Below are positions 3 to 3,921 of a stretch of DNA of 4,096 nt, in pieces (within the stretch, counting starts at the first letter, position 1; every line of letters begins with the position of its first letter). The stretch lies in NCBI GenBank assembly GCA_000004985.1, contig GG739198.1; one strand, written 5' to 3'. The DNA is from Naegleria gruberi (taxonomy: Eukaryota). Under the pieces are notes generated by a model, which searched no databases, was not told the origin of the DNA, and saw nothing but the letters and a program-made list of their open reading frames with translations. The position numbers and the translations under genes were made by a program.

Positions 3-473
3 TTTTTGCTCTCCAATTTTCACATAGCAGCTGAAATGGTAATGAACTGCCGTCTATATGGTCCATTGTGGTGCAATAACGCATTTATTTTTGAGGCAAT
101 GAATAACATTCTCTCAAAACCCTTCAAATGTGCCAATTCTTTAAGATATTCAATTCTATTCTTTGATATGGTAAATTTGGTACAATTATTGAACTTGAAA
201 CCTCCCAATCGTAAACTAGAATGTGTCTGTGGTAATTATATAATCAATAGCAAAAGAGATTACTTGTTACACACTCCCTCTAAAGAAATTTATCAAGTCA
301 ATTCATTTTCTCCAAATTATTCACAAATTGAGATTCGACATGCTGTTAATGGCACAACAATCACCGTCTCACAAGACACTATCAAACAAGATTTCATACC
401 AGCAATATGCCAGCAAATTAATGGCTCTTTTCACTTCAAACCAATTCACAAAATGGCCTTTACATTATATTAA
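3..473 (+). CDS. Possible coding segment of unknown function (3' end of a gene or a terminal exon). The frame is open to the left window edge, so it is probably 5'-partial; stop TAA at 471-473.
   Basis: About 155 codons without a stop in visibly AT-rich DNA, where stops are frequent by chance. The frame is already open at position 3, and the first ATG in frame is at 36. No competing long frame exists on the minus strand. An AATAAA at 504-509 follows the stop. There is no recognisable protein family, and composition is only moderately protein-like. Confidence 0.3.
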   Translation, partial: FLLSNFHIAAEMVMNCRLYGPLWCNNAFIFEAMNNILSKPFKCANSLRYSILFFDMVNLVQLLNLKPPNRKLECVCGNYIINSKRDYLLHTPSKEIYQVNSFSPNYSQIEIRHAVNGTTITVSQDTIKQDFIPAICQQINGSFHFKPIHKMAFTLY

Positions 474-503
474 ATGTCTTTCCATATTTGGCTTCATCTC
501 TAA

Positions 504-509
504 AATAAA
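504..509 (+). promoter_or_regulatory. AATAAA polyadenylation-signal-like hexamer ~30 nt downstream of the stop at 473.
   Basis: Exact AATAAA in ...ctaaaATAAAcac.... The position fits a 3' processing signal for the 3-473 frame. Such hexamers are common by chance in AT-rich DNA. Confidence 0.2.
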
Positions 510-690
510 CACTTTCTATTTTTGCAACCAGTTTAAAATATTTTTCAAAAAAAATACCTCAACATACTAGTAAGTCGTATCAGTTATCAATTATATTACA
601 TCATTTCAATTCGTTTACAAGACATATCAATTCAAATTTTTATTTCACGTTTTTATAAGAAACTCTTGTCAATTTCCTTGTCATCTTTGA

Positions 691-769
691 TGGTGTGAAA
701 TCTTTTACAATATTAATTCACACGGTGTGAATCTTTCACAGCATTGAGTTTCACTCAGTGTGAAATGGT
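691..769. repeat. Tandem ~32-34 bp repeat (~2.4 units) carrying GTGTGAA(A)T half-sites in alternating orientation. It includes the 17-nt near-perfect palindrome ATTCACAC-g-GTGTGAAT (716-732).
   Basis: Unit A 691-714 tGGTGTGAAATCTTTTACAaTATT aligns with unit B 723-745 cGGTGTGAA-TCTTTCACAgCATT, and with partial unit C 757-769 caGTGTGAAATGG. Forward copies sit at 694-701, 725-732 and 759-766. Reverse-complement copies (TTCACA[C]) sit at 716-723, 735-740 and 749-754. Forward copies are spaced ~32 and ~34 bp apart. Confidence 0.6.
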
Positions 770-850
770 TCAAGATGAAAGATTTCCAACTTGTAAGAAT
801 TATGAATAGTTCAATAAAATTTCAATTTATCAAAAATTAATAATCATTCT

Positions 851-1046
851 GCAACGTCATTGGAGACACTTTTTGAGACGTCATTGAGGACGCTTTTTTT
901 GACGTCTTAATGACTCTCAAATTGACACCGTCAAAATGACGAAAAAAAACGTCATTTTGACGTCCACAACACCGTCCCAATGACACCTTAACAAGCATAA
1001 ACAAAGGCGTCATTCATGACTATAAAATCGTCAAAACAAGCGTCAA
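851..1046. promoter_or_regulatory. Degenerate ~24-bp minisatellite of CRE/bZIP-like (TGACG/ACGTCA) core motifs forming the proximal promoter of the gene starting at 1082.
   Basis: ACGTCA at 854-859, 878-883 and 949-954. Palindromic GACGTC at 901-906 and 959-964. TGACG at 937-941. CGTCA at 929-933, 1009-1013, 1029-1033 and 1041-1045. The GCN4/AP-1-like TGACTC at 911-916. Units align, e.g. 852-875 caACGTCATTGgAGACaCTTTTT with 876-900 agACGTCATTGAgGACgCTTTTTTT, and 926-941 ACACCGTCAAAATGAC with 970-985 ACACCGTCCCAATGAC. Confidence 0.5.
1021..1027 (+). promoter_or_regulatory. TATA box (TATAAAA) ~55 nt upstream of the ATG at 1082.
   Basis: Exact TATAAAA immediately after the motif array. The ATG at 1082 sits in an A-rich context (aaaaaaaaATGa) typical of fungal/protist start sites. 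Confidence 0.4.
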
Positions 1047-1081
1047 CAAAAATGAGCGGGTATTTTATACAATAAAAAAAA

Positions 1082-1743
1082 ATGATTATAAGTGAAAAGG
1101 AAAGCCGAGACTCTGCTGTCGTGCAATTAATCGATTTTAATTTAAATAGAAACGAAAATTCACTAGTTCCTGATCTTTTCCAGAAATTAAACAACACAAT
1201 AAAGAATTCTCCCTCCGTTAAGAATCATTTGAAATTTTCACAAAACTTTGAAAAAATTGGTGTAGTGCTACTGATGGATGATGGTATTGATTTGGTCATA
1301 TCGGAACAGTACGATTGTTTAATTATTAATGATGGAAATTATTTGAAAATTTATAACCTACCACAAGAAGGTGATGGAATTAATTTATCAGTTGATAGAT
1401 TTAAGTGTTTGCTCTCTGTTCAATATGAGTATTCTTTTGCATGCATGAAATTGGTGAATGAAAGAGGTGAGGATTTTATTTATGCAACTGCTAGAGGAGA
1501 TTGTGTAGTAATTAAGATTAGAGTTTCAGATTTGATGAAGGGAGAACCAACATTAATTTGGCAATCGATATTTGCTGTTGAAATTGAGAAATTGGATGTT
1601 TTCAAAAATAAGGTCTACATTACTAGTGGTTCAGAAATTATTATTTTGGATTCAAGCAATGGTCAACCACCTATTATTGAGGTAAATATGCCAGCAATTG
1701 TTGATGGCTATTATCTGAAAATATGTCAGAAAATCAAATATAG
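1082..1743 (+). CDS. Hypothetical protein, 5' portion only; the reading frame continues into the N-run, so the 3' end is unknown. No recognisable family. Alternating hydrophobic beta-strand-like segments each ending in D/G (…YLKIYNL…, …DCVVIKIRVSDL…, …KVYITSGSEIIILD…) weakly suggest a beta-propeller-type fold.
   Basis: A 220-codon stop-free frame in AT-rich DNA. ATG in an A-rich context downstream of the TATA box and motif array. Codon preferences (TTG, GGT, AGA, GAA, AAT) match those of the adjacent actin gene. The frame is still open at 1742-1743 (…ICQKIKY then N). A possible GTAAAT splice-donor-like site at 1682-1687 means an intron cannot be excluded. Confidence 0.5.
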
Positions 1744-2675: not shown

Positions 2676-3425
2676 TTTAGAGTTCCAGCCATGTATGTTG
2701 CCATTCAAGCTGTCTTGTCCTTGTATGCTTCTGGTAGAACCACTGGTATTGTTTTGGATTCAGGTGATGGTGTTTCTCATACTGTTCCAATTTATGAAGG
2801 TTATGCTTTACCACATGCCATTTTAAGATTGGATTTGGCTGGTCGTGATTTGACTGACTACTTGATGAAGATCTTGATGGAACGTGGATACAGTTTCAAC
2901 ACCAGTGCTGAACGTGAAATTGTAAGAGATATTAAGGAAAAGCTTTGTTATGTTGCCTTTGACTTTGAAACTGAAATGAAGAAAGCATCTGATAGTTCAT
3001 CCATTGATACTTCATATGAATTACCAGATGGTAATATTATCACAGTTGGCAATGAACGATTCAGATGTCCAGAAGTGTTGTTCCAACCAAATTTCATTGG
3101 TATGGAAGCTGCTGGTGTTCATGAAACAACTTTCAATTCTATTGGAAAGTGTGATATTGACATTAGAAAGGATTTATATGCCAATGTTGTACTTTCAGGT
3201 GGTACAACCATGTTTGAAGGAATTGCTGAGAGAATGAACAAGGAATTGACAGCTATGGCTCCAGCCTCAATGAAGATTAAGGTTGTTGCTCCACCAGAAA
3301 GAAAGTATTCAGTTTGGATTGGTGGTAGTATTCTTTCTTCATTATCAACCTTTCAATCTATGTGGATCACAGCAGAGGAGTATGAAGATGCTGGATGTGC
3401 CATCGTTCATAGAAAGTGTTTCTAA
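2676..3425 (+). CDS. ACT1: Actin (conventional actin). C-terminal 249 codons plus stop are visible; 5'-partial into the N-run. No intron in the visible part.
   Basis: The translation [67 protein letters not shown]…[50 protein letters not shown] is collinear, with no indels, with residues ~127-375 of canonical 375-aa actin. Hallmark motifs ([58 protein letters not shown][VI]D[VI][35 protein letters not shown]) are all present. Frame 0 is open from 2676 (TTT = Phe) straight out of the N-run. Stop TAA at 3423-3425. The gene symbol is generic because the organism is unidentified. Confidence 0.96.
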
Positions 3426-3474: not shown

Positions 3475-3921
3475 TTATCCTTATTATTCCTTAGTGAAAG
3501 ACTGTCCAAATTAACATTTAACAATCAATTTGAGTACATCAAAGCAAAAAAGACTACAGCACCACAGGTTCCCAAGTTGTCTCCAACCTCAGTACTGATG
3601 TGGCTCGACGATGCTTAACTTCTCAAATCGGACGGGATGAGGTGCATTCATCGTGATATGGCCGTAGCCATTCAATTATTGAAAATTTGAAAAATAAATC
3701 AAATTCAAACATTTTCTTGAAATTCGATAGAGGTTTGTTGTTGTTGGAAAGCTCGTTGAATATCTTGACCAACTTTTGAATTAAAACAACAAGATGAACG
3801 GTAGTGTTAGATAACATTCTGGAGATGTATTTATTGTTGTCTTGATGAAGATTGGCCAAGTAAATGATGCATCATTAATGTTAGGAAGCATGTAAAAATT
3901 CAACTCGACAATCACTACAAA

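What the first reader, a model, noticed from the sequence alone, without database searches (positions are those of the whole stretch)
851..1046. Promoter built from a degenerate ~24-bp minisatellite of CRE/bZIP-type TGACG/ACGTCA cores
Roughly a dozen ACGTCA / GACGTC / TGACG / CGTCA cores, plus one TGACTC, are packed into ~200 bp ending at a TATAAAA box 55 nt before the ATG of the unknown gene at 1082. Adjacent units are clearly homologous, e.g. caACGTCATTGgAGACaCTTTTT and agACGTCATTGAgGACgCTTTTTTT, or ACACCGTCAAAATGAC and ACACCGTCCCAATGAC. The array therefore arose by tandem duplication of a binding-site-bearing unit. In fungi and other eukaryotes TGACGTCA/TGACGT is the ATF/CREB-family site (Sko1, Aca1, Cst6, Atf1), and TGACTC is the Gcn4/AP-1 site. 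A site array this dense suggests strong, probably stress- or signal-responsive, control of the downstream gene. It could alternatively be a locus-independent minisatellite family.
Basis: partly seen in the sequence, partly recalled or inferred. Interest (0 to 1): 0.5.

Follow-up and report, generated by a model that had tools for sequence, protein, structure and literature searches.

The report
Repeated CGTCA dyad promoter array, Naegleria
A 200-base stretch upstream of a Naegleria gruberi gene really is packed with CGTCA-type protein-binding sites and probably acts as a promoter, but it belongs to a larger sequence block that also occurs next to different DNA elsewhere, so it was not built for this gene.

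Summary
All 10 CGTCA/TGACG half-sites of the 4096-base window lie in 855-1045, against 2.5 expected for the whole window. In 237 kb of sister-species DNA no 200-bp span holds more than 3. The window is a small unplaced Naegleria gruberi scaffold.

The repeating unit is a dyad, CGTCA-N3/4-TGAC(G), present seven times at 21-35-bp intervals, not a canonical CRE: TGACGTCA occurs zero times. Only the first 2-3 units look like tandem duplicates.

Sense-oriented CGTCA appears to be a real Naegleria promoter element. In 72 non-redundant N. fowleri/N. lovaniensis upstream regions, 12 of 20 copies sit 85-145 bp before the ATG. Every actin promoter class has one.

The array and its TATAAAA box lie inside a 776-bp block (286-1061). 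That block recurs about 99.7% identical in another N. gruberi contig and diverges completely 20 bp before this gene's ATG. One sampled paralogue promoter has no CGTCA.

Best reading: a promoter-type cluster of dimer-binding sites carried on a duplicated or dispersed repeat. A transposon subterminal array remains a live rival. The binding factor is unknown.

The parts
286..1061 (+). Repeat block shared with a second N. gruberi context (ENA contig L002 511-1253). It comprises the 3' third of an unannotated ORF, about 590 bp of non-coding DNA, both motif clusters and the TATA box. The right edge is sharp: ...AAAATGAGCGGGT|.
   Evidence: blastn and MAFFT alignment A1. There are 2 substitutions in the 590 non-coding bases and two in-frame indels in the ORF part. 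No similarity after 1061, and only one weak 43-nt patch before 286.
854..906 (+). Short tandem duplication, 24-bp period, 2.2 copies at 82% identity (units 847-870, 871-894, 895-918)
   Evidence: TRF; the repeat finder D3; unit identity matrix
855..867 (+). Dyad 1, CGTCATTGGAGAC (degenerate right half)
879..892 (+). Dyad 2, CGTCATTGAGGACG; with the preceding bases it gives AGACGTCA (7/8 CRE match)
900..914 (+). TGACGTCT (7/8 CRE match) overlapping dyad 3, CGTCTTAATGAC; TGACTC at 911-916
929..941 (+). Dyad 4, CGTCAAAATGACG (both half-sites perfect)
   Evidence: (I8)
950..962 (+). Dyad 5, CGTCATTTTGACG, the exact reverse complement of dyad 4, 8 nt (A8) away; followed by TGACGTCC (7/8 CRE match)
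   Evidence: (I8)
973..984 (+). Dyad 6, CGTCCCAATGAC (a degenerate copy of the 925-940 unit)
   Evidence: the repeat finder D4
1008..1020 (+). Dyad 7, CGTCATTCATGAC, abutting the TATA box
   Evidence: the repeat finder D1
1021..1027 (+). TATAAAA box, 54 nt before the ATG and inside the repeat block
   Evidence: shared with L002
1029..1045 (+). Two lone sense CGTCA half-sites (1029, 1041) downstream of the TATA box
1052..1075 (+). 7-codon mini-ORF (ATG AGC GGG TAT TTT ATA CAA TAA) that spans the repeat boundary, between the TATA box and the main ATG
   Evidence: read from the sequence
1082..1743 (+). 5' 220 codons of the downstream gene, a beta-propeller protein of an N. gruberi-specific family; it runs into the N gap
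   Evidence: 99% identical to P0001; 11 distant homologues, and every named one is from N. gruberi; AF2 model pLDDT 79.5 with generic WD40/YncE-like propeller hits
3..473 (+). Upstream open reading frame, unannotated in the reference protein set. Its last third is part of the repeat block. No family assignment.
   Evidence: only one database relative, P0122; no Pfam hit
690..764 (.). Second palindromic motif cluster, also inside the repeat block: GGTGTGAAAT, TTCACACGGTGTGAA, CTTTCACAG, TTCACTCAGTGTGAA
   Evidence: the repeat finder D6/I3

Best explanation
Window 851-1046 is a dense cluster of one repeated binding-site type. The site is the dyad CGTCA-N3/4-TGAC(G): seven dyads spaced 21-35 bp apart, plus lone half-sites, bracketing a TATAAAA box.

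Proposed mechanism (inferred): a dimeric sequence-specific DNA-binding protein occupies the dyads, probably cooperatively. Together with the TATA box, this drives rightward transcription starting at about 1050-1060, into whatever lies downstream. Here that is a beta-propeller gene whose ATG is at 1082.

Origin (shown): the array was not assembled at this gene. Array and TATA box are the right-hand ~210 bp of a block of at least 776 bp (286-1061). The block occurs almost unchanged in a second N. gruberi context and ends 20 bp before the ATG.

The object is therefore a promoter-type site array carried on a recently duplicated or dispersed repeat. The first 2-3 units arose by local tandem duplication.

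The identity of the binding factor is not established; it could be a bZIP, a Zn2Cys6 factor or something else.
For: Shown:
- The clustering is far beyond chance. There are 10 half-sites in 190 bp, against 2.5 expected for the whole window. Sister-species DNA has 0.91 per kb, and no 200-bp span in 237 kb holds more than 3.
- The dyad is real: 7 of 10 CGTC cores have GAC at +9/+10, against a 3% background. Two dyads are perfect (I8).
- Organism and gene: the window is N. gruberi, and the downstream ORF is 99% identical to P0001. The actin fragment is a 100% match to a protein whose contig is 4096 bp long.
- CGTCA behaves as a promoter element in the genus. In 72 non-redundant 300-bp upstream regions of N. 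fowleri and N. lovaniensis, sense CGTCA ranks first of 761 pentamers for enrichment at -145..-85 (12 of 20). Antisense TGACG scores 1 of 11. The variants CGTCC and ACGTC rank second and third.
- All three actin promoter classes carry one sense CGTCA at -101 to -142. One class has the same dyad, CGTCAagtTGAC, identical in both species just upstream of a TATA-like AATAAAA.
- Duplication of the block: L002 511-1253 matches window 286-1061, and the flanks are unrelated.
- L002's sample holds N. gruberi-like DNA: its proteins are 99% identical to NEG-M proteins.
- A paralogue promoter (L018) and another N. gruberi intergenic region (L019) contain no CGTCA.

Inferred: factor binding, cooperativity, the transcription start position and the direction of transcription.
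Against: - There is no transcript, TSS or binding data for this locus.
- The positional interval in the sister-species test was chosen after seeing the CGTCA distribution. Some of those promoters are paralogues or orthologues of each other, so the P values are optimistic.
- Typical Naegleria promoters in the sample carry one CGTCA, not ten. The array is therefore not a typical promoter.
- Motifs in both orientations packed against the edge of a repeat are also the classic anatomy of transposon subterminal regions.
- Only two contexts are known, and one comes from a short metagenome contig that could be chimeric.
- There is a small upstream ATG (1052) between the TATA box and the main ATG.
Confidence: 0.5

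Rival explanations
1. Subterminal repeat region of an unclassified DNA transposon or other mobile element whose right terminus is at 1061. On this reading the CGTCA dyads are binding sites for the element's own transposase, as in En/Spm or Ac subterminal repeats. The upstream ORF (3-473) would be the end of the element's protein. Any promoter activity toward the beta-propeller gene would be incidental read-out.
For: - The block recurs in a second context with a sharp edge 16 bp after the last CGTCA.
- The motifs occur in both orientations within about 210 bp of that edge.
- The window is a small unplaced scaffold, which is typical of repeats.
- The upstream ORF is not in the reference protein set, and both of its indels relative to L002 keep the reading frame.
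- A weak collinear similarity further upstream suggests an older, diverged family.
- The density, 10 sites per 200 bp, is unlike any of the 72 sampled promoters.
Against: - Neither ORF copy hits any transposase or other Pfam family, even at E <= 10. My recollection of a DUF4218/Tnp2-like GP..W..FE motif therefore failed its test.
- The left edge of the shared block (286) lies inside an ORF that stays open in both contexts. It shows no inverted repeat with the right end, so the 776-bp block itself is not a TIR element.
- The other terminus and any target-site duplication are not visible.
- Only two copies are known.
- The right end matches none of the CACTA, hAT, piggyBac(+TTAA) or Helitron(CTRR) termini (read from the sequence, compared with termini recalled from memory).
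- The same core is a host promoter element in the genus.
Confidence: 0.25
2. One reading: a gene-specific promoter that evolved in place for the gene at 1082. L002 would then be an allelic or strain-level rearrangement of the same locus, or a chimeric metagenome contig.
For: - The TATA box and sense-biased CGTCA sites (7 of 10) are correctly placed relative to the ATG.
- The L002 organism differs from NEG-M by about 1% at protein level, so it is another strain in which structural variants are possible.
- L002 is a 1.4-kb MEGAHIT (k127) contig.
Against: - It needs two independent breakpoints flanking a block that is 99.7% identical.
- Even a chimeric contig implies that the shared stretch is repeated.
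- The sampled paralogue promoter lacks the motif.
- Only 20 bp of unshared sequence lie before the ATG.
Confidence: 0.15
3. A functionless degenerate minisatellite or low-complexity palindromic DNA, or a 3' flanking (termination or regulatory) region that belongs to the upstream ORF family rather than to the downstream gene.
For: - A short 24-bp tandem repeat is present.
- The stretch has strong self-complementarity as single-stranded DNA, z = -5.6.
- The array travels with the 3' end of the upstream ORF in both contexts.
Against: - Only 2.2 regular copies exist.
- What is conserved across the units is the dyad, not the spacer. That is the signature of selection on a binding site, not of replication slippage.
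- The core has positional and strand bias in sister-species promoters.
- No Rfam family matches.
Confidence: 0.1

Closest known systems
Viral and retroviral enhancer-promoters built from ~20-bp repeats that carry CRE-like cores: the 19-bp repeats of the human cytomegalovirus major immediate-early enhancer and the three 21-bp Tax-responsive repeats of the HTLV-1 LTR (from my own knowledge, not tested here)
   Same: Several imperfect ~20-24-bp units, each with a TGACG/CGTCA core, lie just upstream of a TATA box. The array is carried on a sequence that exists in more than one genomic context.
   Different: The organism is a heterolobosean protist. No full TGACGTCA is present. The unit is an everted dyad, CGTCA-N3/4-TGAC(G), rather than a single CRE. 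There is no evidence for a CREB/ATF factor or for a viral or retroviral origin.
Subterminal repeat regions of DNA transposons: the 12-bp TNPA-binding motifs of En/Spm (CACTA), in direct and tail-to-tail inverted arrangement, and the AAACGG hexamers of Ac (from my own knowledge)
   Same: About ten short CpG-containing motifs, in both orientations and partly as close inverted pairs, lie within ~200 bp of the edge of a repeated block.
   Different: No transposase homology. No terminal inverted repeat or target-site duplication is visible. Only two copies are known. The motif is also a positioned host promoter element.
Homotypic clusters of transcription-factor binding sites, including plant as-1/ocs elements (tandem TGACG bound by TGA bZIP dimers) and inverted-repeat IR3 sites such as the oestrogen response element AGGTCAnnnTGACCT (from my own knowledge)
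   Same: Many copies of one site type in a promoter-proximal stretch of about 200 bp. The half-site is TGACG, as in as-1. The GTCA-N3-TGAC geometry matches an IR3 dimer site.
   Different: as-1 uses direct repeats. Nuclear receptors do not exist outside animals. The Naegleria factor is unknown. The literature states that Zn2Cys6 (C6) fingers, not bZIPs, are the dominant Naegleria transcription-factor family (PMC3537659).

Membership tests
CRE / ATF-CREB (bZIP) site array | Palindromic octamer TGACGTCA, or at least TGACG/CGTCA half-sites | tested here: inconclusive
   The full octamer occurs 0 times. There are three 7/8 matches and 10 half-sites. The recurring unit is CGTCA-N3/4-TGAC(G), not the CRE.
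CRE / ATF-CREB (bZIP) site array | An ATF/CREB-type bZIP factor exists in the organism and binds these sites | not tested
The literature search found no Naegleria CRE or bZIP binding study. PMC3537659 names C6 fingers as the dominant family.
CRE / ATF-CREB (bZIP) site array | Promoter-proximal position upstream of the core promoter | tested here: met
   The sites span -227 to -37 from the ATG and bracket TATAAAA at 1021-1027. The same core is positioned at -85..-145 in sister-species promoters.
Minisatellite (tandem array of 10-60-bp units) | Several head-to-tail copies with a regular period | tested here: not met
   TRF reports only 2.2 copies of a 24-bp unit (854-906, 82% identity). Core spacings are 24, 24, 26, 21, 23, 35, 21 and 12 bp. 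Mean flank identity is barely above the null.
Minisatellite (dispersed family) | The same unit at many unrelated loci | tested here: inconclusive
   One further context was found (L002). Pattern scans of the metagenome, viral and prokaryote genome collections returned only unrelated bacterial hairpins or nothing.
DNA transposon subterminal repeat region | Multiple short motifs in both orientations within a few hundred bp of the element end | tested here: met
   Ten half-sites (7 on +, 3 on -) lie within 210 bp of the block edge at 1061.
DNA transposon subterminal repeat region | Element-encoded transposase | tested here: not met
   No Pfam family matches the window ORF or the L002 ORFs at E <= 10. 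The only database relative is the L002 copy.
DNA transposon subterminal repeat region | Terminal inverted repeats and target-site duplication | not testable with these tools
   The other terminus is outside the 4096-bp scaffold and outside L002. The left edge of the shared block shows no inverted match to the right end.
Homotypic transcription-factor binding-site cluster (promoter/UAS) | At least 3 copies of one site type within a few hundred bp, beyond chance, next to a core promoter | tested here: met
   TATA box at 1021.
Homotypic transcription-factor binding-site cluster (promoter/UAS) | Site-dependent transcription | not testable with these tools
   No expression, TSS or binding data were reachable.

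The most novel reading that the evidence does not exclude
The 286-1061 block is the end of a so far undescribed Naegleria mobile element. Its terminal array multiplies a host promoter element, the CGTCA dyad. The element therefore acts as a portable promoter cassette that wires whatever gene it lands in front of into one regulatory programme. The same CpG-containing sites might double as transposase-binding or methylation-sensitive (DNMT/NgTet) control sites.
Probability: 0.2. Interest if true: 0.6.

Novelty: new member of a known kind. Interest (0 to 1): 0.35.

Why it matters
Cis-regulatory DNA of Naegleria and other Heterolobosea is almost uncharacterised. Four literature searches found no description of a CGTCA-type promoter element or of this repeat.

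If the sister-species signal holds genome-wide, sense CGTCA at about -100 from the ATG would be one of the first positioned Pol II promoter motifs for the genus, which includes the pathogen N. fowleri.

The ten-site array would then be a natural strong version of that element, useful as a candidate promoter for the poorly developed Naegleria transfection systems.

The fact that the array rides on a duplicated block gives a concrete case to test whether repeats spread promoters in this genome.

As it stands, this is an ordinary kind of object, a binding-site cluster on a repeat, in an under-studied organism.

Tried and rejected
- **Transposase hypothesis for the upstream ORF.** It started from a remembered DUF4218/Tnp2-like 'GP..W..F.FE' pattern. 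Pfam found nothing at E <= 10 for the window ORF or for three L002 ORFs. I demoted it to an untested resemblance.
- **Fetching the N. gruberi reference loci.** P0001, P0019, P0004 and P0123 are not on record. P0010 gave only a 1.2-kb RNA-derived contig.
- **Looking for more copies through small ORFs inside the block.** Window 837-1013 (- strand) and 421-570 (+ strand) are not on record.
- **Pattern scans for the array.** JGI metagenomes returned three hits, all unrelated GC-rich bacterial hairpins. Viral contigs returned none in two scans. Prokaryote genomes returned none.
- **Non-coding RNA.** No Rfam family matches 480-1100; the best hit has E = 0.79. No tRNA was found.
- **Bacterial promoter/terminator scan.** Uninformative for a eukaryote.
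It cannot be run. The gene family appears N. gruberi-specific: every named homologue is from N. gruberi, and the two unnamed ones come from ENA contigs.
- **L019 as a second paralogue promoter.** Its gene is the START-domain ORF, not a propeller paralogue. I count it only as another N. gruberi intergenic region without CGTCA.
- **Helical phasing of the sites.** The spacings of 12-35 bp show no consistent 10.5-bp phase (from the coordinates).
- **The ATG at L002 1345 as a downstream gene start.** Only 12 open codons remain before the contig ends, so I did not use it as evidence.

Full report
**What the window is.** The ORF starting at 1082 is 99% identical to the N. gruberi 'predicted protein' P0001. 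The actin fragment at 2691-3425 is 100% identical to NAEGRDRAFT_54894, whose contig is recorded as 4096 bp long. The window is therefore a whole small unplaced Naegleria gruberi scaffold. The N run at 1744-2675 is most likely an assembly gap. A 5S rRNA gene lies on the minus strand at 3551-3669. G+C content is 33%.

**Checking the observation.** CGTCA occurs 10 times on the two strands, and every copy lies between 855 and 1045. Shuffles of the whole window give a mean of 2.5 and never reach 10. In 237 kb of N. fowleri and N. lovaniensis DNA, fetched around actin genes, the half-site occurs 0.91 times per kb, and no 200-bp span holds more than three. TATAAAA is at 1021-1027, 54 nt before the ATG.

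**What the unit really is.**
- No complete TGACGTCA is present.
- Seven of the ten + strand CGTC cores are followed by GAC 9-10 nt downstream. The dyads are CGTCATTGGAGAC, CGTCATTGAGGACG, CGTCTTAATGAC, CGTCAAAATGACG, CGTCATTTTGACG, CGTCCCAATGAC and CGTCATTCATGAC.
- Only 3% of 473 CGTC cores in the sister-species sample have this arrangement (P about 2e-9).
- Dyads 4 and 5 are perfect and are reverse complements of each other across an A8 spacer (I8). This explains the strong single-strand folding score and the terminator-like hit.
- Tandem duplication is visible only at the left end. TRF finds a 24-bp period with 2.2 copies at 82% identity, and units 1 and 2 share 70% of their non-core bases. 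There is also a 16-nt pair at 925/969 (D4).
- Across all seven units, identity outside the core is 0.35 against a null of 0.29.
- What recurs is therefore a dyad-symmetric site, not a regular minisatellite.

**Is CGTCA a promoter element in this genus?** The N. gruberi genome could not be reached, so I used the sister species.
- Every actin promoter class in N. fowleri and N. lovaniensis carries exactly one sense CGTCA, 101-142 bp before the ATG.
- One class has the dyad CGTCAagtTGAC, identical in both species, in the best-conserved block just upstream of a TATA-like AATAAAA.
- In 72 non-redundant 300-bp upstream regions, 12 of 20 sense CGTCA copies fall at -145..-85. This ranks first of 761 pentamers.
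- The antisense TGACG scores 1 of 11. The variants CGTCC and ACGTC rank second and third.
- Caveat: the interval was chosen after seeing the data, and some regions are related to each other. I treat this as moderate evidence. The strand asymmetry is an independent point in its favour.

**The array is not private to this gene.**
- The upstream ORF (3-473) has a single database relative, P0122, on a 1380-bp ENA contig, L002.
- L002 511-1253 matches window 286-1061. There are 2 substitutions in 590 non-coding bases and two in-frame indels in the ORF part.
- The two sequences become unrelated at window 1062, 20 bp before the ATG, and upstream of 286.
- Only a weak collinear 43-nt patch is shared further upstream.
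- Other contigs from the same sample encode proteins 99% identical to N. gruberi NEG-M proteins, so L002 is N. gruberi DNA.
- Both motif clusters, the TATA box and the expected start-site region thus lie on a block that exists next to different DNA.
- The promoter of a paralogue of the downstream gene (L018) contains no CGTCA, and neither does another N. gruberi intergenic region (L019).

**The neighbouring genes.** P0001 belongs to a family of at least ten N. gruberi proteins (25-37% identity), with no homologue detected in other species. An AlphaFold model built from nine family members (pLDDT 79.5) is a generic beta-propeller. Nothing suggests that it is part of a mobile element. The upstream ORF has no Pfam match in either copy. 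My initial idea that it is the C-terminus of a CACTA/KDZ-type transposase is therefore unsupported.

**Interpretation.** Two steps are shown: a highly non-random cluster of dyad sites around a TATA box, and its location in a duplicated block with a sharp edge. The rest is inferred: that a dimeric factor binds the dyads and activates rightward transcription. The support for that inference is the placement of the TATA box, the sense bias of the sites (7 of 10) and the sister-species evidence.
- **Main rival.** The array could be the subterminal transposase-binding region of an unclassified transposon. Its anatomy fits well: both orientations, close inverted pairs, abutting the repeat edge, and a density unlike any sampled promoter. 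It lacks transposase homology, visible termini and copy-number evidence.
- **The two readings are not exclusive.** An element end that multiplies a host promoter motif would be both.
- **Factor identity is open.** TGACG half-sites suggest a bZIP. The inverted-repeat geometry with a 3-4-bp spacer suggests some other homodimer. The literature names Zn2Cys6 fingers as the dominant Naegleria transcription-factor family (PMC3537659).
- **Background.** A 2026 preprint reports that Heterolobosea keep gene-specific promoters and about 100 transcription factors (doi 10.64898/2026.07.29.740908).

**Literature.** Searches for Naegleria with promoter/motif, bZIP, TATA/TSS and TGACGTCA found no description of this element or repeat. 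A search for Naegleria transposable elements gave nothing that classifies it. The held library lacks the 2010 genome paper, so absence of evidence is weak.

**Verdict.** It needs three corrections: the site is a dyad rather than a CRE, the array is not a true minisatellite, and it rides on a repeat rather than being gene-specific. It is a new member of a known kind of object, of modest interest mainly because Naegleria cis-regulation is so little known. One BLAST search of the N. gruberi assembly would settle the main open question.

Noticed in passing
window 690-764: A second cluster of palindromic motifs in the same repeat block: GGTGTGAAAT, TTCACACGGTGTGAA, CTTTCACAG and TTCACTCAGTGTGAA. 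The word TTTCACA(C) also sits about 55 bp before the ATG in every N. fowleri and N. lovaniensis actin promoter. One of them has the palindrome GTGTGAAAATATTTTTCACA. The N. gruberi paralogue promoter L018 has CAGTGAAAT and GAGTGAAAG at about -75 and -55. This may be a start-site-proximal element.
   Followed up: partly
L006-L017 (N. fowleri, N. lovaniensis), 300 bp upstream of called genes: Sense-strand CGTCA is concentrated 85-145 bp before start codons (12 of 20 copies in 72 non-redundant upstream regions), while antisense TGACG is not (1 of 11). This is a candidate genus-wide positioned promoter motif that I could not find described.
   Followed up: partly
window 3551-3669 (- strand): A complete 5S rRNA gene (105 bits) lies 125 bp after the actin stop codon and is convergent with the actin gene.
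   Followed up: no
window 1725-1743 and 1094-1099: Relative to P0001, the window ORF lacks one Glu codon near the start (MIISEKE versus MIISEEKE). Judged by eye against the P0001 protein sequence, it also seems to lack two single T bases just before the N gap, which shifts the frame. This points to low-quality contig ends or an allelic haplotig.
   Followed up: no
L003 168-199, L004 1848-1879, L005 786-819: Three unrelated GC-rich, apparently bacterial metagenome contigs carry the same inverted pair, CGTCAAAATGACG ... CGTCATTTTGACG, as an intergenic hairpin. L003 and L004 share nearly the same 32-nt sequence. It may be a bacterial repeated palindromic element. It is coincidental to the Naegleria array.
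   Followed up: no
L019 55-1490 versus reference protein P0134: The N. gruberi reference model P0134 (473 aa, 'START domain-containing protein') has a P0001-like stretch in its N-terminal part (weak alignment to P0135), ahead of the START domain. On ENA contig L019, residues 19-241 of the separately called 241-aa gene P0135 match P0134 251-473 at 99% identity. A 460-bp AT-rich spacer lies before that gene. The reference model may be a gene fusion artefact.
   Followed up: no
window 1073-1081; L001 1-23: Runs of A directly precede start codons: A9 before the ATG at 1082, and a 23-nt A run in the leader of an N. gruberi actin transcript contig.
   Followed up: no
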